Below, piece by piece: positions 1 to 29,893 of a stretch of 64,000 bases of DNA. The stretch is from Escherichia coli (GTDB lineage Bacteria > Pseudomonadota > Gammaproteobacteria > Enterobacterales > Enterobacteriaceae), in NCBI RefSeq assembly GCF_041886205.1, contig NZ_CP169029.1; one strand, given 5' to 3'. Each line of letters opens with the position of its first letter. Position 1 is the stretch's first letter. Made by a program: the position numbers and the translations under genes. The notes under the pieces were generated by a model, which saw only the letters and a program-made list of their open reading frames with translations, was not told the origin of the DNA and did not search any database.

Positions 1-3000
1 CCACCGTCAGGCCGCACGATGCCAGCCAGCGGCGGCTTTCCTCACTCACCCGGTCAGCCAGGATTTCACTTTCCAGCCGGTCGAGCATCTGCACCAGCAC
101 CGGCGGGAACACCACACTGCCACCGTCTTCGCCGCCGGACTGCTGAAGGGTATCCGCCAGGCTGCGGCGCTGCGTTTTCGCCTGCTCACCGGTGGCGGTT
201 TCAACCCTGATGAGTGGCGTGAAGCTCCCCGGCTGATAAATCGTCTGGATGCGGGTCCTGTCGTTCTGTATCGTGGTCAGCCGGTCGCCGTCCCAGCCGT
301 ACCAGGTCACTTGCGGTTTCCGTGACAGCGACATCCAGCCCGTCAGGTCCCGTTCACGCCGCCACACCCGTTTTGCCACCCTGCGGCCCAGCGGGTCGTA
401 AAGATAGCGACTTTCGACCAGCGGCTCTGCATATTGTGTCCGCGTGTAGTGCACCAGCCGGTGCTGACTGTCGTAATGGTACCGGTGGGTGCGCTCATCA
501 TCCGTGCGGATAACCCCTTCCGGGATGAGGTCGGTTTTCTCCGTCAGCCTGCCGTGACGGTCATACCGGTAAAGATAGTGCGCGTCACGGGCGATACGGT
601 TATCCGGCCACATGCTGAGGGTGCTGTCCGGGTGCAGCTCCGGGTCGGGCAGGCGGTTACCTGCCGGGTCTGTGGCATACGGGATGCGGATATCCAGATT
701 CGCTGCGGTGGTGTGAACGCTGGTCAGCCTGCCGGTGGTGCTGTAGCTGTAACTCCGGGTCTGGCGCGGGCTGCTGATGCGGATGAGTTCGCCGTTGTCG
801 TTCCAGGTGTAATCGCGGTCATACAGCAGGCTGTTCAGGTGCTGGCTCTGTAACTGCCCGGCAGGGGTGTAAGCGGTGGTGAGTTCATTAACGGCCGAAG
901 CTGCGCAGCGTTTCCCGGTGCAGGCGGTCGCGGGTGTACTCCACCAGCGGTGTGTCGCCGAGTTTCATGCCTGCCAGGTAACCGCTGCCGTAGGTCAGCC
1001 ATTCCACGGCGGGCAGGCTGTCCGGTATACAGCGGTTCGCCAGCCCCTGCGCGTTGTACGCATGTCTGGTCTCATGCTGCCAGAGCAGTGCTTCCGTCTG
1101 CGGGTGATGCACCGTCTGACGTTCACCGGTCAGGCGGCCTTTATCATCATACCCGTAGTGCACCGTCACCCGGTGCCCTTCGCTGATATGGCTGATGTCT
1201 GTCAGCCAGCCGCGTGTCGTCATACTGCCACCGCTCTGCCGGTTTCACCCTTCACGGTGCGGTGCGTGAGGCGGTCTGCTTCGTCATAGTGCCAGTGGGT
1301 GACCAGCCCCTCATCCTCACTGCTGGATGAGTTTGCCGGTCAGGTCGTGGTGATAACGCTGTGTGCGGCCGTCAAAGCCGGTTTCCTGTATCGAGCCGGT
1401 CAAGCACATCGTAACGGAAGGTGGTGTGGCTGCCGTTTTCACTGGTCAGGCGGATGACCCGTCCGGCAGCATCGTATTCCATACTGCGCGTCAAGCCCGC
1501 CCTGCGTGGTACAGACGGCCTTTCCCGCGCGCATCGTACTGTGTCCCGTTTCTGCTGCCGTCCGGGGCAATAACGGCGGTCAGGTCACCGGCGGCGTTGT
1601 ATTCATACCGCGTTTCATGGCCCTGCGTGTCTTTCACCGAGCAGTTAACTGTCCACGGCTGTCGTATGCGCGGTACTGGCTCATGCCCTTCCTCGCGGTG
1701 CACCGCCGTCATCTGACCGAAACGGTCATGGTCATAGCGGGTCGTGGTAACCGGAACAGTCAGTGAAGGTCAGCAACTGACCGTAACGGCTCCACGTCAT
1801 GGTTTTCCGGTACTGCCCGTCGCATCCGTCCGTTGTCGCAGGGAAGCTCACTGTGCGCGGATTATCATAACGGTAGCGGGTGATATCGCCGTCAGGGGCG
1901 AGTCTCCTGAATCAGACGTCCGTATTCATCATATTCCCGGCGCATTTCCAGCCCGTCCTGGCCCGGTAGCTGACGTTAACTGGTTGTGGTCGTTATAGTG
2001 AAACGCCGATGCCCTGCCATCCGGCGTGGTGATGCGCGTGATGAGCGCCGCGACACCACATCCGGGCTGTACTCTGTCTGTCCGGCCTGCGGCATCCGTC
2101 TGTGCCTTAAGCCTGCCCACCGCATCAAACTCGACTCTGCGTGACGCTGCCGTCCGCGTGTTCCTTTTTCACCACCCGCTTCAGCCCGGCTTCGCCCTGC
2201 GTGTGCAGCACTTCACGGCGGTTCAGGCTGTCGGTGATGGTGATGCGGTCCTTCTCATACTGATAGCGTGTAGCTCCAGAGCCTGCCGGGTTGAGCTGCT
2301 TCGTCACCCGCCCGGTCACTCGTCGTACCGGTAGCGGATTTCCGGCCGGCCCGCGTAACGGTGCGCCACCATCCGGCCCCGGTGTTGCATCATCGTAAGT
2401 GAAAGCTGCGCACCTGCGTTCCGCTGCGGTCATACACCGCCGCGCAGTTCGCCGCGCTGGCCGTCCAGCGTGTAGCGCGCCAGCGGCGCGGCAGGCTGAA
2501 TTCTCCGGGTATGCCGGGTCGTGCGTCAGCCACACCGCCGACAAGACGGATGCCGTTGTCCGGGCCGTATTCGGTGTACCCGGGCAGTGTGTCGAGGAAA
2601 AGCGGACGGTTCCGAGACCGGCGGGAAGATAAAGAGTGCGCGCTGCTCGGGCTTGTCCTGCCCGCTGCGCCTGCGTGGTCAGCACCAGCCGGAAGTGACG
2701 CCCGGCACCGTCCGTCACGCCGGTGATTTCGCCGCCGAATGTCACCCGCCGGCCTCGCGGTGGAACGTCAGCGTCCGCCCGAAGCGGTCCGCCAGCCCGG
2801 TCAGCACCCGGTACGGCGGCAGCGCGCGCAGGCAGCACCTCGTCCGCTTCCGGCACCCGCTCACGACCAGCCGAGCAGCCACCACGGCCCCTGCAGCGCT
2901 GTTCGTCGCCAGATAACGATGCGGACTTAAGCGGATATCTTCCGGCAGCGCCTGCCAGAGTGCGCCTAGCCGTGTGACCGTTCATCCAGCTCCGCCACGC

Positions 3001-3441
3001 CGCCGCGCACCAGCCACAGTGACTCGCTGCGGCTGTAGCCGTCCTCGCCGGGAAACAGCGTGCTCAAAGTGACAGGCTCCTGCCGCCGTTGTCAGCTGAG
3101 TATCAGTGCGTCATCGCGCAGCTGTAAGCGGATATCCGCAGGCGCTTTCAGCCGGGGCCGAGGCTCCCCACCGGCGCGGGCGTTCTGGTCCGGTAGCTGC
3201 TGTAGGTGCGGGAGAGGATGAACGGCAGCGGGCGCGGGCAGGGCGATGTCGGTCTCGCCGGGCAGGCACCTTCGCACCGAGCAGCGGATTGACCGGATGG
3301 CCGGACGTCACCCCGCCGGACACGCCGAACAGGCCACGCCGGTGGGCGCGCCGATGCGCACCCGGCTGCCGAACCCTCGGACAATGCCGCGGCCGCCTTG
3401 CGGGTCATGTCGCCCTGACGCGCCGCCGGTTTTCCGCTCAT
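1..3441 (-). pseudogene. Rhs-family YD-repeat protein, N-terminal and core part only; C-terminal toxin domain lies beyond the window start; reading frame broken many times
   Basis: Minus-strand ORF starting at 3441 begins MSGKPAARQGDMT (typical Rhs N-terminus); downstream fragments carry YD-repeat sequence (e.g. YGYDDKGRLTGE, RYEYNAAGDLTAV, ITTPDGR); fragments lie in different frames. Confidence 0.8.
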
Positions 3442-3479
3442 GAATCAATTCCTCTTTCTGCTTATTAATAATGGCTTGT

Positions 3480-5693
3480 CTGTTACTGCACCAGTACCGT
3501 TTTAACAGGTGCACCCGACCCTAGTACTGCTCGCATATCCGGCGTATCCGGGGGGTGAATCTTTCGGCATCAGGCGTCATCCGGTGCGGGATCGTCGAGG
3601 CTGCCACAGTTCCAGTTAATCAACTGGCGCAGTCACCGTTCACCTGCTCGACTCACCCTGCCAGAGTGAATGTGCGTGCCGTTGAGAAAGATTGCTGCCG
3701 TCCTTCGTCAGCACCAGCCTTGCCTCACCACAGCAGAGCTCCAGATGCCACAGGCGAGATAAACTCGCGGTCTGCCCGTGTGTCAGTCCTTCATTCGTCT
3801 TCTACCACCGGTGAAAGGCGGCGTGATTCCCCACATTGACGTCTGTAGCCCAGCCCGACCCTGAACCAGTGATCCGAAGCAGCCCTGCCTGTGAGGACTG
3901 CAACAGACGCCACCGAGGTGTGGTCGTAATGCCGCCTACCGTCGTCTGGTACGCCCACCGTCAGCGCACGAACGAGTCGCCACCGTTTCCACTCTGAACA
4001 GAACCCACGTTGATGATCTGGTTACCGCCCACCGTCTCCACACTGGTTCATCCCCCACTCGTCTGTATCTGATTAACGCCAATGTTCTGGATCTGGTTAT
4101 TGGTACCGGCGATCGCCTGGTTGTTGCCAATGGTCTCGGCATGGTTGTTTATCACATCCGTGGTGCGGTTATTCAGCACCTCAGGTGTTCATCTGTCTTC
4201 TGCGCGTGGATGTAGACCTGTTCTTTCCCTGTCGCATCGTCAAACTTCAGTTCATTAAACCCGCTGCCCGTATACGTTTTCGAGCGGATGGTCATCTGCG
4301 TCTTCGTTCCGGCAGGCTGCCGGGTGTGCGGTTTTCCTGGTGGTAGGTACGCCCCATAATGATCGGCTGGTCCGGATCGCCGTTGAGGAAGTCCACAATC
4401 ACCTCCTGACCCACACGCGGTATCGCCAGGTGGCCAAAACCGGTGCCTGCCCACGCCTGTGCCACACGGATCCAGCACGAACTGTCTTGGTCTGCCGGGT
4501 TATAACGGTCCCAGTTGAACTTCACCCGCACGCGACCATGTTCGTCGCAGAAGATTTCCTCGCCTGCCGGTCCTGTCACGACAGCGCTCTGCGGGCCGTC
4601 AACCAGCGGTTTCAGCAACGGCTGTGGTCGCCATGTTCTGTCTGCCGGGATCACCGCAAAATGGTTATCCAGCGCCGTCCCCGCTCCCTGCCGTCCTGGC
4701 ACCGCCTGTGGCTGTTCGCCGTGCAGTTCACTTGCCACCACCTGCCATTCCCGGTTCAGGTTCGCCTGCGGATGCCCCGTCAGCACAATTCGCCGTCCCG
4801 GCCATATCTCCGGCGAGCGGCTTGTTCCCCGCGCGGTTTCTGCGTTGTTGCGCCAGCCGTCCATCTGCCAGCGGGCAAAGTTCTGCCCGTGGGCACTCTC
4901 GAAACGTCCGGGGTAGTCATACACTTCATACTGCGTGCGCTGGTAGTCCTGGTGCTGGCCTTCCTGTTCAAAACGTCCGGCCCAGCCGGGTCGCTTAAAG
5001 GTGTAGTCTTTGTGTTCACCACGGAAGAAGGGCGGATTTGTGCGCTGTAGCGGAACTGGCTGATGCAGAGGGTGCTCACCTCGGTACGGGTGTTCGGATT
5101 CCAGGGATTTCAAAAGATTCGGGCAGATAACGCGACTGTGTCGCACAGCACCAGGCTCTGGTCGGTACTTTTGTAAGCATGCTCCTCATAAAAGAAGATG
5201 CCTTCCTCCGCCGCCATCCGGCACAGGAAATCGTAATCAGTCTCACCGTACTGGACACAAAACTCACGGGAAGGATGCGGCTCGCTGAACAGCGGACTCC
5301 ATTCGGTCACCCCGTTTTCCTGCAACATCGTGCCGAGGATGCTTTCGATGTCCTCGTTCTGGAAGATACGGAAGTTCTGGCGCAGACCGGCACGCCACAG
5401 CGGCGGGTGCACCTTCATGCTGTACAGCATCTGGTTTTTGTCGTTCTCCCCCAGTTCAAACCAGGTCACCACACCTTCACCCGGCGCTGTACGTCATCGC
5501 CCTGCCATACCGTCAGGTAGGCCATTTTGTCCAGCACCTGCGCAAATTCAAGGGAGAGAAACTGCTGGCTGACCAGAGAGAGATCGAGGGAAAAAAGCGA
5601 AGAGAGTGACTGGTTCAGATGAAAGGAAACCACCGCAAACGCATCCGGTGGCAGGCCGTCCACTTCCAGTGTGAAACGTAATCCGGTTGACAT
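3480..5693 (-). pseudogene. vgrG: VgrG spike protein (TssI), frameshifted; 3' end approximate
   Basis: Fragments at 5466-5693, 5110-5472, 4292-5146 and 4173-4478 (minus) read MSTGLRFTLEVDGLPPDAF..., ...GRTYHQENRTPGS..., MTIRSKTYTGSGFNELKFDDATGKEQVYIHAQK, matching VgrG gp27/gp5 modules; frames differ between fragments. Confidence 0.8.
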
Positions 5694-5850
5694 AGCAACC
5701 TCTGGGGTTAGGAAAAACAGACAGTTCGCTGTTAAAGCGGCTGTGACAGTACAGTGTTACGCTTGCGTTCAGGCACGCTACCGCCGAGTTTTCCGGCAGT
5801 CGCCATCTCCCTTGCTAGTACCCTAACTGACAACCTTTTTTTTATGGTGT

Positions 5851-5890
5851 AATACAAAAACAGCATCCGGCCTGATAGCCGGATGCTGTT
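5851..5890 (-). terminator. Rho-independent terminator immediately downstream of hcp, upstream of vgrG
   Basis: Inverted repeat cagcatccggc / gccggatgctg (5861-5888) with 6 nt loop, followed on the minus strand by a T-run (A-run 5851-5860 on plus). Confidence 0.55.
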
Positions 5891-5898
5891 GGCTTAAC

Positions 5899-6425
5899 TT
5901 ATGCTTCCAGCGGTGCGCGCCAGTCGTCGGCACCGGAGGTGCCAGATTTGACGTGTTCCCATTCAATTTTCGCGGTAGGCCAGTGAAACTTCGAGCAACT
6001 GGGTGAACTCGCGTTTCGCCGGGTCCTGGCAATGCGGCATATGCAGTTCTCATATCGCCAATCGTCGAATCAGTCAGGCGGGGAGCGAGATAGTGCTCCT
6101 GTTTGCCTTCCACAGAGGTACGCCACCAGTGAAGTTCAGCGGTTGGGCAGCATTTCGCCGGAGGCCAGTGCGTTGTACATCAGCGGAACCGCTTTGTTCA
6201 GCGCCACGGTAAAAATGAAAGGCTTGTGAGCGCACGCTGACCCGCAGGCTGACCGGACTGAGGATCGGTCCGCACAGATAACGTTATGCAGGAATTCCTG
6301 CACCAGCATCTCCGTCTTCGTGCCCCTGCACATAGATGTTGCCGACAGAATCAGCGGTAAATGCACCTGCAGTAATATTTCCCTGGGTCTGACCAGTGAT
6401 GGAAGATATAACACGGTGTTGGCAT
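5899..6425 (-). pseudogene. hcp: Hcp (TssD) tube protein, frameshifted
   Basis: Minus-strand translation from 6425 begins MPTPCY... and ends ...PLEA*; internal fragments ...EMLVQEFLHNV...HKPFIFTVALNKAVPLMYNALASGEML and VEGKQEHY...LTDSTIGDMRT match the Hcp family; length 527 nt is not a multiple of 3. Confidence 0.8.
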
Positions 6426-7134
6426 TTGTAAACTCCTTGTTAACGTGGTTAATTACTACTTACAATGACCTGCCGTTAATCCCAGACAGGCAGATGCAGC
6501 TCACTTCACGGAACCGCATCATTTTTCAGTATTTTTTACATACAAACCGAGCTAGAATTTACGGTTGTCGTAAAAACTATTTTTAAAATCATTACATAAC
6601 TCTCATTCAGCAAATAACTTAATAATATATATCTGGATAGCCATACCCAACTGTTCAAAGTCCGTATTGCCTCCATAAAATGGCCAACAGCGCGAACCAA
6701 CTGAAAATAAATATTGTATTTATCCTTTCTGAATTATCATTTTGATAATTTTTGAAGATATTCCTTAAAAATACCCACTTAATCAATCACAGTAAACACA
6801 TGTATAAATAAGCAATCATTAGATTAGCTCATGTTTAATGAAATTATTATATACTTCAATAAGTTACATAAAAAATCTATATTTAAATTATTGCCATAAT
6901 ACACCTGACGCGAATTGCACAGGTTCACACAATCTATTTAACGCTTGCAGAATACCCCTCTTTACCATCGATAAAAAGTCCTTTTCTTATTTATTTTGAA
7001 GCGTAAAATGCGGGGTGATGAAGGAGCTGGTGATTTTATTTTCACCGCCATTAGGGCGGCATTGCCGATATTTTTTTGCGGTACAAATATGCCGTGTTCA
7101 TGGCCTGTACGAGATAACATGACGGATTACTTTT
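6426..7134. promoter_or_regulatory. AT-rich divergent intergenic region between hcp-vgrG-rhs (minus) and tssB operon (plus); presumed promoters
   Basis: ~700 bp non-coding, visibly AT-rich compared with flanking genes; sits between divergently oriented T6SS genes; no specific promoter elements verified. Confidence 0.35.
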
Positions 7135-7646
7135 ATGAGCAAAAAATTTGAAGGCAGCGTCGCGCCTCGCGAGCGTATTAACATATCGTATGTCCCAAAA
7201 ACAGATGGCCAGACGGCTGAAGCGGAACTTCCGCTTAACATGCTCGTTGTCGGCGATACCGGAAATACGCAGGAAAACATCCCCACTGGATGAACGTCAG
7301 GCAGTTTCCGTTAACAAGCACAATTTCGGTGCAGTGATGGCTGAAGCAGCCATTGGCCTCAATTTTACTGTCCCCGCCACGCCTGAAGGGAAGCACAACA
7401 GACGATGAACTGAATGTGGCGCTGAATATCAAATCACTGGAAGCTGACTCTTTCACCAGATAGCGTGGCCCGGCAGGTTCCGGGAAGCGAGTAGTAATCG
7501 CTGGAACTGCGTGAAGCACTGACTGCACTGAAGGGGCTCGGCTGGGTAAACCTTCCGGCATTCCGTACCCAGCTCCAGGCATTGCTGGAAAATGAAGAGT
7601 CCCGCGAGCAGTTGCTCAAAGAAATCGGTCTGGTGAGCAATAAATA
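7135..7646 (+). pseudogene. tssB: TssB (VipA) small sheath subunit, frameshifted
   Basis: Translation from ATG 7135: MSKKFEGSVAPRERINISYVPKTDGQTAEAELPLNMLVVGDTGNTQENIP then stop; continues in another frame as LDERQAVSVNKHNFGAVMAEAAIGLNF; TssB-family N-terminal signature. Confidence 0.75.
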
Positions 7647-7958
7647 ACCACCACGATTCCATTAAACAGGGTTATCCAGGACATGACGGCACACAAAAAT
7701 ATCTCCGGGACATACCACCTCTCTGTTGCAGACATTCTGCAGGTGCTTTACCAGGTATGTTTCAGCCCGTCCGTTGAAATCAACCAGGACTGGTGTGGCT
7801 GCGCTGATTACAACACTGGATCGCCGTATCAGTGATCTATTGGATGAGATTATCCATTTTTGTGAGTTTCAGCAGAGCGCGTCGCACTGGCAGCGCGTAC
7901 TTCACTGATGGCGAAAGGCCGGTTCCAGAAACACAGCTAAAACAGAAGGATTTTCAGT

Positions 7959-9461
7959 ATGTCTTTACAGGAAGAGGAACTCTGTTCCCAGTCATGCCGG
8001 GCAGCCTGGAGCAGGCATCGTCGCTGCTTGATCAAATCATGGCACAGACCCGTATTCAGGCCCGGTTCGGAAGGTTATGACGTTGCCCGCCAGGGTGTGA
8101 CAGCCTTTATTGCCAGCATCCTGCAATCCACTGCATCTGCCGAACCGGTCAATAAACTGGCCGTGGACAGCATGATTGCAGATATTGATGAACGCATCAG
8201 CCGCCAGATGGATGTCATCATCCAGGGCGCGCCTGCCTTTCAGCAGGTCGAATCGTTCTGGCGCTCACTGAAAACCATGGTGGATCGCGTTGATTTCCGT
8301 GAAAACATCAAGGTCAACGTGCTTCATGTCACCAAAGCAGGGAACTTCTGGAAGACTTTGAGTTTGCGCCAGAAATTATTCAGTCCGGATTTGATCAAGC
8401 ACGTTTATTCGTCCGGATTCGGACAGTTTGGCGGTGAACCCATCGCTGCCGTGCTGGGCGCTTATGAGTTCAAAAATACCGCGCCTGACATGAGACTGTC
8501 GGCAAGACGCCAGTGCCGTGGGCGCAACGGCGCACGCACCGTTCCTGTCCTCCGTTTCCCCGGCGGAGTTTATGGGGCTGAACTCGTGGACCGAACTGCC
8601 TAATATCAAAGATCTTTATGCCATCTTTGAAGGTCCGGCCTACACCAAATGGCGCGCCCTGGCGTGACTCGGAAGATTCGCGCTGGATTCAGGGCTTACG
8701 GCACCCCGTTCTTCCTGCTTCGCCAGCCCTGGTCACCAGCAGATAACCCTGTTAAGAAGCTTTAACTATCACGAAGATGTCAGCCAGAACCACGAAGATT
8801 ATCTGTGGGGTAATACGGCCTGGATGCTGGCATGCAATATCGCAGACAGTTTTGCCGAATACCGCTGGTGTCCAAACATTATCGGCCCGCAAAGCGGCGG
8901 CGCGGTGAAAGATCTGCCGGTGCATCTGTTCGAAACGATGGGGCAGATTCAGGCCAAAATCCCAACCGAGGTGCTGGTCACCGATCGCCGCGAATTTGAA
9001 CTGGCTGAAGAGGGTTTTATCACCCTGACCATGCGTAAAGACTCTGATAATGCAGCCTTTTTCTCTGCAAACTCGGTACAAAAACCTGAAGCACTTTCCG
9101 GGAAAAGATGCAGAAACCAACTATAAGCTGGGTCTGCAGTCTCCCTGATCTCTTCATCATCAACCGGTTAGCGCACTACATCAAGGTGTTGCAGCGTGAA
9201 CATACTGGGGTCATGGAAAGAAAGGAGCGACTTAGAGAGGGCAGCTCAGACACCCTGGATCCGTCAGTATGTTGCCGACCAGGAAAACCCGCCGGACGGA
9301 CGTGCGCAGCCCGCAAACCTCTGCGCGCAGCCAGAGTTGAGGTTATGGATGTGGAAGGCGAACCCGGCTGGTACCAGGTTGCGCTAAGCGTGAGGCCTCA
9401 TTTTAAATTTATGGGGGCAAATTTTGAGCTTTCCCTGGTCGGCCGGTTAGACAGGGAGTAA
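7959..9461 (+). pseudogene. tssC: TssC (VipB) large sheath subunit, several frameshifts
   Basis: Fragments SLLDQIMAQTRIQ, EGYDVARQGVTAFIASIL, PVNKLAVDSMIADIDERISRQMDVIIQGAPAFQQVESFWRSLK and C-terminal ARVEVMDVEGEPGWYQVALSVRPHFKFMGANFELSLVGRLDRE match TssC; pieces are in three frames. Confidence 0.8.
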
Positions 9462-9466
9462 CACAC

Positions 9467-9893
9467 CATGAGAGTACCGGATCGGGAAAAGAACCACAGG
9501 TTCTCTTTTTTGAGCGTATGGAAGCCTCTTCGGCCAGAAACCGGGCAGGGAGGCAGTATTCATTCGCTCAGGCAATCCATTCGCCAGAACCTGACGAAAC
9601 ATTCTGAGTACCCGGTCCGGTAGTTGCCGGGGTGCGCCTGAGCTGGGCATTGATGAACCGGAAGGGGCTGAAAACTTCCGCGAATCCATGAGTCGGGCCA
9701 TCGAGCAATGTATAGAACGCTATGAACCCCGGATCTCACACGCTGAAGTGCAGGCAGTGGTTTCATCCGCCTCCAGCCCGCTGGATACGGCTGCTTCATA
9801 TTACAGCCTGGGTGACATTTCAGTCTGAAACGCATGAGGTGCTTGAATTTGATATGGCACCGAATGCAGCCAGCATTACCGGGTGGACTGACA
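9467..9893 (+). pseudogene. tssE: TssE baseplate (gp25-like) protein, frameshifted; assignment from position and size
   Basis: ~140-codon gene slot between tssC and tssF starting ATG 9467 (MRVPDREKNHRFSFLSVWKPL...); frame is interrupted; identity based mainly on synteny. Confidence 0.45.
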
Positions 9894-9894
9894 A

Positions 9895-11701
9895 ATGGAA
9901 TTTGAAGAACGCTATTTCCGGGAAGAACTCGATTACCTGCGCCAGCTGAGCAAGCTGCTCGGCAATGGATCTATCTGGCCCGCTTCCTGGCCGAAAAAGA
10001 TGCGGATCCGGATATCCAGAACGCCTGCTGGAAGGGGTGGGGCGTCTTTCTTAACCGGCAATCTCCGCCAGAAAATTGAGGATGAATTCCCAGAACTGAC
10101 GCACGGGCTCAATCAAAGATGCTATGGCCTGATCACCTGCGTCCGGTTCCTGGCAATGACCCTTGATCTATATACGCCGGATATGGATAAGTCTTCTGTA
10201 CCGGTGTTAATCCCCTCGTAGACTCAGCAGTTGAACATACCAACGCCGGGGAAATCAGAGTTGATGAAGTGCTGCCCTCTGATGCTAAAAAGGAGGAGCC
10301 GCCTCCCCTGTACCTTCAGCCCTCTGCCGGGATATCAGGCTGCTGGCCCGTTCGCCTGGAGCAGATTGACTGCAGTACGACCCGTAATGGTGTTATCATA
10401 CATCACCCTTTCGGTTCGCACCGGAAACGGACTTCCGCACGCTGGATCTGAACAAACTTCGCTTCTGCCGCTCGGCAATGACGACAACTATACCCGTGAC
10501 CAGCTTTATTTATGGTTCTGCGAATACTTGCAGGGTGCCGACCTGACTGTGGGTGAACAGCATATTCGCCTGCCTGAGTTTATGCTAAAAGCTGTCGGTT
10601 TTGAGCCGCAGGACGCCATGCTGGCCCTGGCCTGAAAAACGTCCACAGCGGCTACCGGATCCTTCAGGAGTATTTCCGTTACCCCGATGCGTTTCTCTTT
10701 TTTGATCTTTGTGGTTGTCCGGCTTTGCCTGACGGATTGCAGGCGGAATTCTTTACCCTGCAACTGCGTTTTTCGCGCCCTTTGCCCGTGGACATCCGGC
10801 TGCGCCGCGATTCCCTGCGCCTGTATCGCGCACCTGCCATTAATTTATTTATCCACCATGCAGAAGCCATCACGCTGGACAAACCGGCGGGCAAGACTAT
10901 CCGCTGGTTCCCAGCCGCCATTACCCACAACATTACGATGTATTTTCCGTTAACAGTGTGGTGAGCCAGGTCCAGGATATGTTCAGGAAAAAAGATCTGG
11001 GGCGTCCTGTTTCGACGCAGGCCGCGCGCCAGTGGCCAGCCTTTGAAAGTTTCAGCCATCAGATGGAATACAGCCGGAAGCGGGAAGTGGTGTACTGGCA
11101 ATCACCGGACCAAAACATCCCTGTTCCATCGCGGCTTTGATCATACCCTTGCCTTTATACATGCTGATGGCAGTTATCCGTCAGACGAATCTTCTCGCTC
11201 GAGTAAATGAAGTGGTTTCGGTATCGCTGACCTGTACCAACCGTGAGCTTCCGTCACAAATACGTTCCGGGCGATATCACCGGCACAACCGGTAAAAATG
11301 CGGCTGTTGCTTCATTTCGCAACATTACCCGCCCGACGCAACCACTCTGGCCGGTCATTGACTGGCAGCCTGCACTGGTCCCTGCTCTCCGCCATGAACC
11401 TGAATTATCTGTCATTACTGGATACGGACGCGCTGAAGCAGCTCATCGCCAGTCTTTGATCGCCACGCAATCCATCATCCGCAGACGGCACGGCTGTCAC
11501 AACAAAAGCTGGATGCCATTGAGCGTCTGGAGACCCGCCCCGTTGATCGCCTGTTTACGGGTATTCCCGTCCGGGGACTTGGCCTCCACGCTGTATCTGC
11601 ACCCGGAGCCGTTTGTCTGTGAAGGGAAATGTATCTGCTCGGTACGGTGCTTTCGCATTTTCTGTCGCTGTACGCCAGCGTTAACTCATTCCACATGCTG
11701 A
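9895..11701 (+). pseudogene. tssF: TssF baseplate protein, several frameshifts
   Basis: N-terminus MEFEERYFREELDYLRQL is the conserved TssF start; ~600-codon span fits TssF; ORF pieces at 9895-10221, 10231-10635, 10725-10964, 11243-11701 in different frames. Confidence 0.7.
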
Positions 11702-27142: not shown

Positions 27143-28039
27143 ATGGCTGGTTTAAGGAATAACAACAACACACAGAATGCACAGTGGGCTGATTATGTGG
27201 GTGACATTCTTCGGGGGGCTCAGCCGATAAACCAGCTAGTACCTCAGCACCCTTATCTTAACGACGTCCCACTCATTGATGAGTTAAGGCATCAGAACAC
27301 TCATCATGTTATTCTCTTGACACTTGATGTTGCAAAAAAAATACTCAGCCCAATAACATCATTTGATTACATTCATTTTATCACTACACATCCTTCAGGT
27401 ATAAAAGATACACTCGCCTGGTTAGTTAACGCGGGTAAATTAATGACTGAGTTTGATGACAATGGGAAAATTATATTTAACCTTAATGCCTTAAAGTATA
27501 CAAAAGCAAGTTACTTTGAAATACTTGGAGAGAAATATATAAAAATCACAACATCCAGCCCCTGGCTTTTAGAAAAGCTCGGTAAATATATTTTCTCTTC
27601 ACGAGCGCCTCAAGTTCTGGAACTCGCTATTGGCTGGCGAGGAGCTTTATCTGAATCAATAAAAGGAGTTAAGTTCTGTATCTGGTTTTCAGTAGCCTGG
27701 AGAACCATAGAATTTATTATGAGTTCAGAGCGAGATCTGGTTAATTTTCTTGGCGATTTTTCAATGGATGTGGCCAAAGCAGTTATAGCCGGTGGTGTTG
27801 CAACCGCTATTGGAAGCCTGGCTTCTTTTGCCTGTGTTAGCTTTGGCTTTCCAGTAATTCTTGTCGGAGGAGCAATTTTACTGACAGGGATAGTGTGTAC
27901 AGTTGTTTTAAATGAAATCGATGCTCAATGCCATTTATCAGAAAAATTAAAATATGCAATTAGAGATGGACTAAAACGGCAACAGGAACTTGATAAATGG
28001 AAAAGGGAAAACATGACTCCATTTATGTATGTTCTTTAA
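27143..28039 (+). CDS. Hypothetical protein with C-terminal glycine-zipper transmembrane hairpin; candidate Hcp-linked membrane-targeting effector
   Basis: Intact ORF (frame opens at 27128; ATG 27143 has a better RBS ggagag); AT-rich; C-terminal hydrophobic helices AVIAGGVATAIGSLASFACVSF and FPVILVGGAILLTGIVCTVVL; immediately downstream of hcp2. Confidence 0.6.
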   Translation: MAGLRNNNNTQNAQWADYVGDILRGAQPINQLVPQHPYLNDVPLIDELRHQNTHHVILLTLDVAKKILSPITSFDYIHFITTHPSGIKDTLAWLVNAGKLMTEFDDNGKIIFNLNALKYTKASYFEILGEKYIKITTSSPWLLEKLGKYIFSSRAPQVLELAIGWRGALSESIKGVKFCIWFSVAWRTIEFIMSSERDLVNFLGDFSMDVAKAVIAGGVATAIGSLASFACVSFGFPVILVGGAILLTGIVCTVVLNEIDAQCHLSEKLKYAIRDGLKRQQELDKWKRENMTPFMYVL

Positions 28040-28067
28040 CACTCCACCCGTGATATGAGGATTAACC

Positions 28068-28433
28068 ATGCGTTTACATGTTAAATTAAAAGAGTTTCTT
28101 TCGATGTTTTTTATGGCCATATTATTTTTCCCTGCATTCAATGCTTCTTTGTTTTTTACCGGAGTTAAACCTCTATATTCAATAATAAAATGCTCCACGG
28201 AAATATTTTATGATTGGAGAATGTTGATTCTGTGCTTTGGTTTCATGTCGTTTTCCTTTTTAAATATTCATGTAATTTTACTTACGATAATAAAATCATT
28301 CTTAATCAAAAAAACGAAGGTAGTCAATTTCGCCACAGACATAAACAATACAGCTAACTCTTATATTTTTACTAATAGCTATCGTAATAGCACCTTTAAT
28401 AGCTCCTTTTGTCACAGGATATGTCAATGCTAA
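28068..28433 (+). CDS. Small hypothetical inner-membrane protein (121 aa); candidate immunity protein
   Basis: Intact ORF with RBS (gagga) and two hydrophobic segments (FFMAILFFPAFNASLFF; MLILCFGFMSFSFLNIHVILLTII); directly follows the putative effector gene. Confidence 0.5.
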   Translation: MRLHVKLKEFLSMFFMAILFFPAFNASLFFTGVKPLYSIIKCSTEIFYDWRMLILCFGFMSFSFLNIHVILLTIIKSFLIKKTKVVNFATDINNTANSYIFTNSYRNSTFNSSFCHRICQC

Positions 28434-28703
28434 TTATCACCCCTGCGGTAATAATGCGGGGATTTTCCCAGCGAGCAATCTGATATTAAAAATGGCATGA
28501 AATGTAGTAACTGAATATATTTCTCGCAAGGAAGATTCAGCAGTTAAATAACTAAATATTCTAAAACAAACAGTTTTTAACTCCGGTATTCCATGTCCTT
28601 TCTTGCACTGTCTTTGTCAAGAAAGATTTCTTATGCAAAGAATTTTGTATTATTGCCGCCCAGAGATTCCTGGCGGCAGATAGAATCTATTATTGATAGC
28701 GAG

Positions 28704-29486
28704 TTAACCAAATCTTTTCACCATCGCTTTATAGGTCTTTTGCTTAAGTTGCATGATTTGCTGCTCTGTCATATCAGTCGTACTGGCTTCATTCTTGTCG
28801 GGCAATGGTGGAAGCACTTTATATTCATACTTCACCGGCGACCAGGTACGTAGCCCACTCACCTGTTGCCACATCCACCAGCGTGAAACGTACCAGGTAG
28901 CGCAGGGAGATAGCGTCGGTGAGTTTTTCATTTTTATAGTCGGACCATACTGTTGATTTCAGCGCAGAGTCATATTTTCCTGTCTGCAACGTATCCTGGA
29001 AAACAATAATCGCTTTCTGATGCCCTTTTGCAGCCCACAAAACGCAGTGCCTGCATCCAGTTCATATTCTCAGCACTGGCAACATCCTCGTTCTCATTTT
29101 TATCTTTGTTTTTGTTACAAGTCAGAGGCTTTTGCCTGTCCGGGATACTCAGAAAAGAACGTGGAAACAGTATAATATTTTCGCATCTCCTCCTGCATAA
29201 TGGTTTCCGGTGCGCGGTTGCCGGATTGAACAAGTATTACAGGAGAATTAAGGGGAACGCGGAACTCATCTCCATCAAGCGCAGCTTGAATATCCTCTTC
29301 GGATACGGCCAGAGTGGTTTCATTACCGAATAAATCTTTGTCTGTCAGTTGCTGGGGAGTGTTTTTATTAATATTACTTTGTGTGACTTGAGCTTTTTTC
29401 TTCTTTTCATCAATAGAAGATTCAGAGGCACATCCTGCAAGCAGCGAGAATAACACACATATGCAACAAAGCTTTTTTGAATTCAT
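28704..29486 (-). pseudogene. yafT: Lipoprotein YafT-like gene adjacent to aspV, frameshifted
   Basis: Minus-strand ORF from 29486 begins [21 protein letters not shown] (lipobox); continues in other frames down to 28704 (~261 codons total); position next to tRNA-Asp as for K-12 yafT. Confidence 0.65.
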
Positions 29487-29752
29487 AATTGGACACTCCC
29501 TCGCCTGTCATAATCATGGTAATGTTTAGCTAACGATTTTTAATTATATACTCCACTTGAATCAGAACAAACAAAAATAACAGTATATATAAATTCATTA
29601 AATCAATAGAAAAATGAAAATCATAACATTCAAATATATTTAAATTGAATGATTCGATAGTATGATTAAATATTAATGATATGGTCTACCATATGTGATT
29701 AACACATTTACAGCATAACAAAACCATAGACCGAAGAAATAGCGGGATTTAA

Positions 29753-29816: not shown

Positions 29817-29893
29817 TGGCGGAACGGACGGGACTCGAACCCGCGACCCCCTGCGTGACAGGCAGGTATTCTAACCGACTGAACTACCGCTCC
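29817..29893 (-). tRNA. aspV: tRNA-Asp (GUC)
   Basis: 77 nt; reverse complement reads GGAGCGGTAGTTCAGTCGGTTAGAATACCTGCCTGTCACGCAGGGGGTCGCGGGTTCGAGTCCCGTCCGTTCCGCCA. Confidence 0.97.

What the first reader, a model, noticed from the sequence alone, without database searches (positions are those of the whole stretch)
7647..7958. Unassigned ~310 bp between tssB and tssC
tssB appears to end near 7646 and tssC to start near 7959 (the conserved SLLD.IMAQTRI motif is at ~8000), leaving a gap with short ORFs (e.g. 7683-7835 MTAHKNISGTYHLSVADILQVLYQ...) and no recognisable motif. It could be an N-terminal extension of tssC, a small accessory gene, or non-coding spacer; frameshifts make this hard to resolve.
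Basis: seen in the sequence. Interest (0 to 1): 0.25.

Follow-up and report, generated by a model that had tools for sequence, protein, structure and literature searches.

The report
Broken tssC-derived small ORF (Z0263-like)
The "empty" 310 bp between the two sheath genes of this E. coli type VI secretion cluster holds a frameshifted copy of a small ORF already annotated in about 2,250 complete E. coli genomes, which is a diverged leftover copy of the start of tssC and now evolves like unconstrained DNA, so it is ordinary.

Summary
The tssB stop codon is at 7645-7647, the tssC ATG is at 7959, and 311 nt lie between them.

The interval is not unassigned. Intact E. coli T6SS-2 clusters carry a 225-bp CDS here (WP_000123967.1, "hypothetical protein"; by locus-tag numbering Z0263 of EDL933).

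Residues 28-72 are homologous to TssC residues 58-102 (hhalign 97% probability, E 2e-11). That stretch covers the domain-3 helix and the FQQ..W motif.

The element occurs only in the Escherichia/Citrobacter/Atlantibacter/Yokenella sub-lineage. More distant clusters have tssB and tssC 11-47 nt apart.

Recent evolution looks neutral:
- dN/dS is 0.7-2.3, against 0-0.15 for tssB and tssC.
- Substitutions show no codon periodicity.
- The ORF is independently broken in at least four lineages and has a nonsense allele in one E. coli strain, all beside intact sheath genes.

Only the last 50 nt, which hold the tssC ribosome-binding site, are constrained. The ORF did stay open across the deep split between the two groups (P about 0.02 under neutrality), which hints at past weak selection.

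Verdict: a known annotated ORF, most likely a decaying tssC-fragment relic. Low interest.

The parts
7135..7647 (+). tssB (sheath small subunit). The copy carries 12 extra bases relative to E. coli O103:H2 and is multiply frameshifted. Stop TAA at 7645-7647.
   Evidence: Pfam T6SS_VipA and TIGR03358 match the intact orthologue.
7648..7682 (+). 5' spacer between the tssB stop and the small-ORF ATG. It contains one extra A at 7681, and the Shine-Dalgarno match is weak or badly spaced.
   Evidence: Its divergence is near the synonymous-site rate (0.136 against 0.18).
7683..7908 (+). Frameshifted copy of the 74-codon small ORF of E. coli T6SS-2 (WP_000123967.1; inferred to be Z0263 of EDL933). ATG at 7683, TGA at 7906-7908.
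7790..7790 (+). Extra C (GGACTGG against GGATGG) that shifts the frame after codon 36. It is absent from all 1,964 complete E. coli genomes that match this stretch.
7764..7899 (+). Segment encoding ORF residues 28-72, homologous to TssC residues 58-102 (loop, domain-3 helix, FQQ..W motif).
   Evidence: BLASTP 3e-8; Pfam VipB positions 2-33 and TIGR03355 positions 41-82; PDB TssC/VipB chains; hhalign 97.3%, E 2.3e-11.
7909..7958 (+). Conserved leader of tssC, with AAGGA at 7946-7950, 8 nt before the ATG.
   Evidence: There are 0-3 differences in 50 nt among Citrobacter-type lineages that differ at 18% of third codon positions. The homologous 20-nt spacer is already present in outgroups.
7959..9461 (+). 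tssC (sheath large subunit). The copy carries 27 extra bases and is multiply frameshifted.

Best explanation
The interval carries a small ORF that is a diverged copy of a piece of tssC, the part encoding TssC residues about 58-102 and possibly from about residue 40. In the ancestor of one T6SS-2 sub-lineage (Escherichia, Citrobacter youngae, Atlantibacter, Yokenella and related metagenomic contigs), about 270-290 bp holding this fragment were inserted between the tssB stop codon and the tssC ribosome-binding site. The most likely route is a partial duplication of the resident tssC 5' end. This origin is inferred, not shown. The fragment stayed open as a 70-74 codon ORF and is annotated as a hypothetical protein in E. 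coli. Today it shows no detectable protein-level constraint and is being lost piecemeal. It is therefore best read as a gene relic that merely spaces tssB from tssC. Only the final 50 nt or so, the tssC translation-initiation region, are functionally constrained. In this window the relic is additionally split by one extra base at 7790. That base is one of about 100 insertion-type differences scattered over hcp-tssF in this sequence.
For: Identity and position:
- The interval is 98% identical to the tssB-CDS-tssC interval of E. coli O103:H2.
- The region is present in 2,258 of 5,426 complete E. coli genomes.

Homology to TssC.

Phyletic pattern:
- The element is present only where TssC is at least 87% identical.
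- In Rahnella, Buttiauxella, Trabulsiella, Enterobacillus, Lonsdalea, Halomonas, Photobacterium, Helicobacter and Bordetella-like clusters the spacer is 11-47 nt.

Neutral-like recent evolution:
- dN/dS is 1.0-2.3 between E. coli alleles and 0.72 between L003 and Atlantibacter, against 0-0.15 for tssB and tssC.
- Variable sites by codon position are 21/28/23.
- In codons 39-70 there are 5 synonymous and 17 nonsynonymous codon variants.
- The 5' half of the ORF diverges at 0.167, against 0.18-0.19 at third positions of tssB and tssC.

Independent inactivations beside intact tssB and tssC:
- E. albertii: ATG lost, indels of -1, +4 and -18.
- C. youngae: TGA at codon 22.
- Yokenella: +1 frameshift and a TAG.
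- L073/L076: 8-nt deletion.
- E. coli SCU-102: natural W69-stop allele.

Other points:
- The converse also occurs: the ORF is intact beside a truncated tssC in L003 and L074.
- The small ORF is slightly closer to its own clade's TssC (16-18 of 45 identities) than to other TssC proteins (9-17 of 45).
Against: - The reading frame, start and stop are shared by the E. coli-type and Citrobacter-type groups although they differ at 43% of sites. Simulation gives about 7% for no stop and about 2% for no stop plus a retained start under neutrality, before counting indels.
- The one indel inside the ORF between the two groups is 12 nt, and the E. marmotae deletion is 48 nt. Both are in frame.
- In the deep comparison, positions 1 and 2 differ less (37-43%) than position 3 (50-56%).
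- Together these three points suggest weak selection for an open frame in the past.
- The 3' half of the ORF diverges at only about half the synonymous rate (0.082).
- All 39 full-length E. coli copies in the evenly sampled listing are annotated as CDS.
- The duplication origin is not demonstrated. Similarity between the ORF leader and the tssC leader is not significant, and DNA-level similarity to tssC is weak (z = 6 in E. coli, 1.5 in Atlantibacter).
Confidence: 0.6

Rival explanations
1. It is a working small accessory protein that stands alone as a copy of the TssC domain-3 helix. In the sheath this helix packs against the C-terminal helix of TssB. A free copy made between TssB and TssC could hold or cap TssB, acting as a chaperone or as a brake on sheath assembly.
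For: - The ORF is open with the same start and stop in two groups that differ at 43% of sites (P about 0.02 under neutrality).
- Indels inside the ORF are in frame.
- TssC-invariant residues are retained (I, D, I, H, W in ..LI..LD.RI..L.DEIIH...QQ...W).
- AlphaFold predicts a helical hairpin, helices 15-26 and 35-73, with pLDDT about 75-85 over residues 11-60.
- In P. aeruginosa, TssC1 helices 39-54 and 66-86 form a three-helix bundle with TssB1 helix 117-133 (PMC5807055).
Against: - Recent dN/dS is about 1 or higher and there is no third-position excess.
- There are at least four independent knock-outs plus a nonsense allele in E. coli, all beside intact tssB and tssC.
- The element is absent from all other T6SS clusters examined.
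- The ribosome-binding site is poor (sequence).
- No family beyond this narrow clade was found among 1.84 billion representative proteins.
- No interaction was tested here.
Confidence: 0.2
2. The interval acts in cis for tssC expression. It could be a 5' leader or internal control region of tssC. Alternatively the ORF could matter only because it is translated, keeping ribosomes on a 300-nt intra-operon spacer so that transcription reaches tssC. Under that second idea the amino-acid sequence would be free to drift while stop codons are disfavoured.
For: - Constraint rises toward tssC: pairwise divergence is 0.167, then 0.082, then 0.027 along the interval, against 0.18 at synonymous sites.
- An open frame with a neutral-looking protein sequence matches 'translation matters, sequence does not'.
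- The literature reports conflicting data on whether tssB and tssC share one transcript, and reports CsrA repression of tssC with an AGGA motif 8 nt from its ATG (PMC13141884).
Against: - No sigma-70-like promoter or intrinsic terminator was found in the gap.
- There is no Rfam match.
- The consensus RNA fold is weak (-13.5 kcal/mol over 212 columns), with essentially one two-state covariation event.
- The conserved 50 nt are largely the ancestral 20-nt spacer plus the ribosome-binding site, already present in clusters without the insert.
- Lineages with an early stop or frameshift keep intact downstream sheath genes.
Confidence: 0.12
3. It is an N-terminal extension of tssC that only appears separate because of frameshifts in this copy.
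For: The window copy is heavily frameshifted, and the ORF sequence is TssC-like.
Against: - In intact E. coli clusters the ORF ends at a TGA 50 nt before the tssC ATG, and a further stop codon separates the two in that frame.
- tssC starts at the same MSLQEEEL with its own AAGGA site in every orthologue, with or without the insert.
- The downstream TssC already has the full N-terminus, including the segment that the ORF duplicates.
Confidence: 0.01

Closest known systems
E. coli T6SS-2 hypothetical protein WP_000123967.1 (74 aa). By locus-tag numbering this is Z0263 of O157:H7 EDL933, between tssB Z0264 and tssC/vipB Z0262.
   Same: Same position, same flanking genes, about 98% nucleotide identity, same start and stop. 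Z0262 and Z0264 are assigned in PMC6730261 and PMC12981562. Z0263 is listed with T6SS genes in PMC10657854.
   Different: The window copy has an extra C at 7790 that splits the ORF, an extra A at 7681, and a V22L change. That Z0263 is this ORF is inferred from numbering. It was not checked against the EDL933 record.
TssC/VipB sheath large subunit (Pfam PF05943, TIGR03355), N-terminal domain-3 helix region.
   Same: ORF residues 28-72 align to TssC 58-102 with conserved ..MI..LD.kIS.QmDeIlH...FQ..ES.WR.. positions. The predicted structure is helical.
   Different: Only about 45 of about 490 residues are represented. The ClpV-binding LLDxIMxQTR motif is missing, as are sheath domains 1 and 2. 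Scores are far below the family cut-offs. It cannot be a sheath subunit.
Gene relics from partial tandem duplication (truncated paralogous fragments next to the parent gene).
   Same: Homology to part of the adjacent gene, lineage-restricted presence, neutral-like substitution pattern, and repeated independent disruption.
   Different: The frame stayed open across a deep split, which a pure relic would do only about 2% of the time. The duplication boundaries could not be demonstrated.

Membership tests
E. coli T6SS-2 small ORF family (WP_000123967.1 / Z0263-like) | Lies between tssB and tssC of a T6SS-2 (aspV-island) cluster | tested here: met
   tRNA-Asp flanks the island in the window at 29817-29893.
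E. coli T6SS-2 small ORF family (WP_000123967.1 / Z0263-like) | Sequence identity to family members over the full length | tested here: met
   The alignment shows mean column identity of 98% over 411 columns. The two halves translate to the family sequence.
E. coli T6SS-2 small ORF family (WP_000123967.1 / Z0263-like) | Uninterrupted ORF of 74 codons | tested here: not met
   The +1 insertion at 7790 splits it into 7683-7835 and 7726-7908. The insertion is absent from 1,964 E. coli genomes.
TssC/VipB sheath large subunit (PF05943 + PF18945; TIGR03355) | Whole-protein score above the curated cut-off | tested here: not met
   17.4 bits against 27 (Pfam), and 19.7 bits against 271.5 (TIGR03355).
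TssC/VipB sheath large subunit (PF05943 + PF18945; TIGR03355) | Sheath domains 1 and 2 and the gpW/gp25-like C-terminal domain (about 490 aa) | tested here: not met
   Only 74 aa, covering model positions 41-82 of 473.
TssC/VipB sheath large subunit (PF05943 + PF18945; TIGR03355) | N-terminal ClpV-binding helix motif (LLDxIMxQTR) | tested here: not met
   The motif is present in the adjacent tssC. There is no significant match in the small ORF, where homology starts at TssC residue about 50-58.
TssC/VipB sheath large subunit (PF05943 + PF18945; TIGR03355) | Homology of the helix and FQQ..W segment (common descent of this piece) | tested here: met
   hhalign 97.3%, E 2.3e-11; BLASTP 3e-8.
Functional T6SS accessory (Tag-type) gene | Purifying selection on the protein | tested here: not met
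   Recent dN/dS is 0.7-2.3, there is no codon periodicity, and the synonymous to nonsynonymous count is 5:17. The deep branch is only weakly constrained.
Functional T6SS accessory (Tag-type) gene | Retained wherever the core genes are intact | tested here: not met
   The ORF is broken in C. youngae, Yokenella and L073/L076, all with full-length tssB and tssC, and in E. albertii, where tssC is intact up to the contig end.
Functional T6SS accessory (Tag-type) gene | Expressed protein with a T6SS phenotype or binding partner | not testable with these tools
   No expression or interaction data were found.
Relic of partial duplication of tssC | Derived from the neighbouring gene, with identifiable duplication boundaries | tested here: inconclusive
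   Protein homology is clear. The ORF is slightly closest to its own clade's TssC. Leader similarity is not significant, and DNA similarity is weak.

The most novel reading that the evidence does not exclude
The 74-residue product is a functional free-standing mimic of the TssC domain-3 helix. It would bind the C-terminal helix of TssB and tune sheath assembly in E. coli T6SS-2. It would have been kept as an open frame since the Escherichia/Citrobacter split and be now relaxing in lineages whose T6SS-2 is silenced or degenerating.
Probability: 0.15. Interest if true: 0.5.

Novelty: already known. Interest (0 to 1): 0.18.

Why it matters
Little changes for T6SS biology. The finding resolves an apparent hole in the cluster as a frameshifted copy of an ORF that RefSeq already annotates.

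Two points are useful:
- The "hypothetical protein" between tssB and tssC of E. coli T6SS-2, which one strain-typing study lists among T6SS virulence markers as Z0263, can be labelled a TssC N-terminal fragment with no detectable current constraint.
That layer looks technical or very recent, so pseudogene calls in this window should not be over-interpreted.

Tried and rejected
- Rfam scan of 7000-8300 at E up to 1 found nothing.
- A promoter and terminator scan of the intact interval found nothing inside the gap.
- RNAalifold on 11 orthologous 3' halves gave only a weak fold: a GGAUGAxAUxAUCC hairpin and a hairpin over the tssC start that never varies. This is no convincing covariation.
- A Foldseek search of the AlphaFold model against the PDB gave no meaningful hit, because a helical hairpin is too simple a shape.
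- An exhaustive phmmer search of 1.84 billion representative proteins found only this narrow family plus spurious repeat proteins. TssC itself was not reached at library-wide E-values.
- The test for a duplicated leader (ORF leader against tssC leader or outgroup spacer) was not significant: 7-40% of shuffles scored as high.
- DNA alignment of the gap to the tssC 5' end gave z = 6 in E. coli but 1.5 in Atlantibacter, which is too noisy to define duplication boundaries.
- Attribution of the fragment to a particular TssC lineage had too few sites. The own clade is only marginally closest.
- I considered, by hand count, whether residues invariant in the small-ORF family are enriched at TssC-invariant positions (4 of 11 against 6 of 34). 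I judged this not significant and did not pursue it.
- An AlphaFold run on a TssB-linker-ORF fusion was considered and not run. With only one job left, no positive control was possible, and an alignment padded with TssC segments would bias the answer.
- No paper was found that discusses this ORF's function.

Full report
**1. What is at the coordinates**

The window sequence shows tssB ending ...AGC AAT AAA TAA, with the stop at 7645-7647. tssC starts at ATG 7959, preceded by AAGGA at 7946-7950. That leaves 311 nt between them.

It also contains a second ORF in another frame, 7726-7908, ending ...GVAALITTLDRRISDLLDEIIHFCEFQQSASHWQRVLH. Both flanking genes are broken into many short ORFs in this window.

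**2. Comparison with intact clusters**

Window 7000-9600 matches more than 2,100 complete E. coli genomes over its full length at about 96.7% identity.

In E. coli O103:H2 12009 the region is annotated tssB, then a 225-bp CDS "hypothetical protein" WP_000123967.1, then tssC, tssE and tssF. It lies inside the T6SS island next to tRNA-Asp. The CDS encodes MTAHKNISETYHLSVADILQVVYQVCFSPSVEINQDGVAALITTLDRRISDLLDEIIHFCEFQQSASHWQRVLH.

Aligned to it, the window interval is 98% identical. It carries one extra A two bases before the ATG (7681) and one extra C at 7790 (GGACTGG instead of GGATGG). The C shifts the frame after codon 36.

The 309-nt interval is present in 2,258 of 5,426 complete E. coli genomes. 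It was annotated as a CDS in all 39 full-length copies of the evenly sampled listing. No genome among the 1,964 that match the 71 nt around 7790 has the extra C.

By locus-tag numbering the ORF should be Z0263 of EDL933. TssB is Z0264 and TssC/VipB is Z0262 (PMC6730261; PMC12981562). Z0263 is listed with T6SS genes in PMC10657854. This equation is an inference. I did not see the EDL933 record.

**3. What the ORF is**

It is not motif-free. Several searches tie it to TssC:
- BLASTP against the adjacent TssC aligns ORF residues 15-72 with TssC 50-102 (34% identity, E 3e-8).
- Pfam VipB matches profile positions 2-33, and TIGR03355 matches positions 41-82. Both scores are far below the family cut-offs.
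- phmmer against PDB sequences finds only TssC/VipB chains.
- A profile of seven family members against a profile of thirteen TssC N-termini gives hhalign probability 97.3%, E 2.3e-11, with ORF 28-72 aligned to TssC 58-102.

The E. coli T6SS-2 TssC is very close to V. cholerae VipB. In the P. aeruginosa sheath structure, TssC1 helix 66-86 and helix 39-54 form a three-helix bundle (domain 3) with TssB1 helix 117-133 (PMC5807055). So the ORF corresponds to the TssC half of that outer-surface bundle. It lacks the ClpV-binding LLDxIMxQTR motif and everything that builds the sheath wall.

AlphaFold, run on the 7-sequence alignment, predicts a helical hairpin with helices at 15-26 and 35-73 and mean pLDDT 74. 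A Foldseek search of the PDB with this model was uninformative.

**4. Distribution**

Word-indexed and exhaustive protein searches find the family only in Escherichia, plus one 40%-identical, 70-aa relative, P0044. P0044 also lies between tssB and tssC on a metagenomic contig.

A scan of one genome per GTDB species with TssC returned 65 loci. tblastn and direct inspection of these show two states:
- The insert is present only where TssC is at least 87% identical to the E. coli protein: E. coli, E. albertii, Citrobacter youngae, Atlantibacter subterranea and Yokenella regensburgei.
- In Rahnella, Buttiauxella, Trabulsiella, Enterobacillus, Entomohabitans, Lonsdalea, Halomonas/Vreelandella, Photobacterium, Helicobacter and a Bordetella-labelled MAG, the tssB stop and the tssC ATG are 11-47 nt apart.

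The 20-nt Rahnella/Buttiauxella spacer (TAATTTTTAGAAGGATTTTGAACATG) matches the bases immediately upstream of E. coli tssC. The extra 270-290 bp therefore sit between the tssB stop and the pre-existing tssC ribosome-binding site, and they arose once in this sub-lineage.

A DNA-pattern scan of metagenomes added four more Citrobacter-type loci.

**5. State of the ORF in each lineage**

| Lineage | ORF state |
|---|---|
| E. coli alleles A, B, B2 | intact, 74 aa |
| L003 | intact, 70 aa |
| L074/L075 | intact, 70 aa |
| Atlantibacter | intact, 70 aa, but DEIIH has become GEITY |
| E. marmotae | in-frame 16-codon deletion |
| E. albertii | broken: ATG lost, indels of -1, +4 and -18 |
| C. youngae | broken: TGA at codon 22 |
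| Yokenella | broken: +1 frameshift and a TAG |
| L073/L076 | broken: shared 8-nt deletion |
| E. coli SCU-102 | natural W69-stop allele, annotated as 68 aa |

tssB and tssC are full-length in C. youngae, Yokenella, L073, L076 and Atlantibacter. tssC is truncated in L003 and L074, where the small ORF is intact. Integrity of the ORF is therefore uncoupled from integrity of the sheath genes.

**6. Selection**

Nei-Gojobori estimates:
- tssB: dN/dS 0.04-0.16.
- First 219 codons of tssC: 0-0.15.
- Small ORF between E. coli alleles: 1.0-2.3.
- Small ORF, L003 against Atlantibacter: 0.72.
- Small ORF, E. coli against L003: about 0.3, but dS is saturated there.

Differences by codon position:
- Between E. 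coli alleles: 2/10/2 and 6/8/1.
- Within the Citrobacter-type group: 7/9/5, 5/7/3 and similar.

Across seven Citrobacter-type sequences the variable sites number 21/28/23 by codon position. In codons 39-70 there are 5 synonymous against 17 nonsynonymous codon variants. There is no coding signature.

Mean pairwise divergence in the Citrobacter-type group:

| Region | Divergence |
|---|---|
| tssB, third positions | 0.178 |
| tssC, third positions | 0.189 |
| tssB and tssC, first and second positions | 0.018-0.025 |
| 5' spacer | 0.136 |
| ORF, 5' half | 0.167 |
| ORF, 3' half | 0.082 |
| Last 50 nt before tssC | 0.027 |

Constraint therefore rises toward the tssC start and is at the nucleotide level, not the protein level.

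**7. The counter-evidence**

The E. coli-type and Citrobacter-type ORFs differ at 43% of aligned sites, yet they share start, frame and stop. The only indel inside the ORF between the two groups is 12 nt.

I simulated random substitution at that divergence. The frame stays free of stops in about 7% of trials, and free of stops with a start codon in about 2%, before allowing for indels. At the within-group divergences of 10-17%, 18-39% of copies are expected to survive. That matches the roughly half that do survive.

In the deep comparison, positions 1 and 2 are somewhat less diverged (37-43%) than position 3 (50-56%).

The simplest reading is that the frame was weakly selected for part of its history. 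Selection could have acted on the protein, or simply on the stretch being translated. That constraint is no longer detectable.

**8. Origin**

A partial duplication of the resident tssC 5' end is the most economical source:
- The ORF is marginally closest to its own clade's TssC (16-18 of 45 identities, against 9-17 for others).
- In E. coli the DNA aligns to the tssC 5' end better than shuffled sequence does (z = 6). That alignment continues past the ORF stop, toward TssC codon 113 or so.

The evidence is not conclusive. The Atlantibacter alignment is not significant (z = 1.5). The visual resemblance between the ORF leader and the tssC leader does not beat shuffles. The origin is therefore inferred, not shown.

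**9. Cis-acting alternatives**

There is no promoter-like or terminator-like site in the gap, no Rfam family, and only a weak consensus fold.

PMC13141884 reports that the tssB operon behaves as one polycistronic unit. It cites earlier work placing tssB and tssC in different operons, and it cites CsrA repression of tssC with an AGGA motif 8 nt before the ATG. This fits the conserved last 50 nt, but those bases are largely the ancestral spacer. None of the papers I read on the EHEC cluster discusses the small ORF.

**10. The frameshift in context**

Against O103:H2, the window has 0 indels in dkgB through dnaQ and in the rRNA genes. It has 12, 27, 11 and 36 extra bases in tssB, tssC, tssE and tssF, with few deletions.

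The extra bases come in patches: about 1.5-4.5 kb, 6.0-11.7 kb and 28-29.5 kb. They are mostly single bases and are not tied to homopolymers (53 of 114 lie next to the same base, which is the chance level).

Mismatches in the same genes are dominated by third positions (tssC 12/8/36, vgrG 34/27/114). That is ordinary divergence under selection.

The insertions therefore form a separate layer. They are either very recent or technical, for example an unpolished stretch of a long-read assembly. I cannot tell which. Either way, the split of the small ORF in this window is not a lineage feature of E. coli.

**11. Verdict**

- The interval is a frameshifted copy of a known, annotated, lineage-restricted small ORF.
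- The ORF descends from a fragment of tssC.
- It is most likely a decaying relic (0.6). A TssB-binding mimic (0.2) and a cis or translated-spacer role (0.12) are not excluded.
- Interest is low.

Noticed in passing
window 1500-4500, 6000-11700, 28000-29500: There are patches with about 1 extra base per 50 nt relative to all E. coli references. Insertions greatly outnumber deletions and are not homopolymer-linked. The adjacent core genes (30-39.5 kb) have zero indels. Substitutions in the same genes are dominated by third positions. This looks like a technical or very recent layer that creates most of the 'pseudogenes' in this T6SS island.
   Followed up: partly
window 7909-7958: The 50 nt upstream of tssC are far more conserved (0.027 pairwise) than synonymous sites (0.18) across Citrobacter-type lineages. 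They include AAGGA 8 nt before the ATG. The literature reports CsrA repression of tssC.
   Followed up: partly
L078 13547-13753 (E. coli SCU-102): A natural nonsense allele of the small ORF (W69 to stop), annotated as a 68-aa protein WP_000718847.1, lies next to intact tssB and tssC.
   Followed up: yes
window 39500-64000; L077: The core part of the window (dnaE, ldcC, proS, rRNA operon) is 99.9% identical to E. coli wlxctx60 and 6EVA. E. coli wlxctx60, the one inspected, carries a different, remnant T6SS island (tssA, tssG, partial tssF/tssE/tagJ) at the same tRNA-Asp site. The T6SS-2 island here therefore has a separate history from the backbone.
   Followed up: partly
window 1-7000: The rhs-vgrG-hcp end of the island is at most 85.5% identical to any of 5,426 complete E. 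coli genomes, although coverage is 100%. It is a divergent Rhs/VgrG allele with added indels.
   Followed up: partly
L003 1767-2653; L074: These are metagenomic Citrobacter-type clusters in which the small ORF is intact but tssC is truncated (234 and 326 codons). In L003 the truncated tssC is followed directly by a YafT-family gene, so this is a degenerating T6SS-2 cluster.
   Followed up: no
window 7843-7856 (GGATGAGATTATCC): A small hairpin-forming palindrome lies within the DEIIH codons. It is conserved as GGATGAAATCATCC in the Citrobacter-type group. There is only one two-state covariation event, so this is weak evidence.
   Followed up: partly
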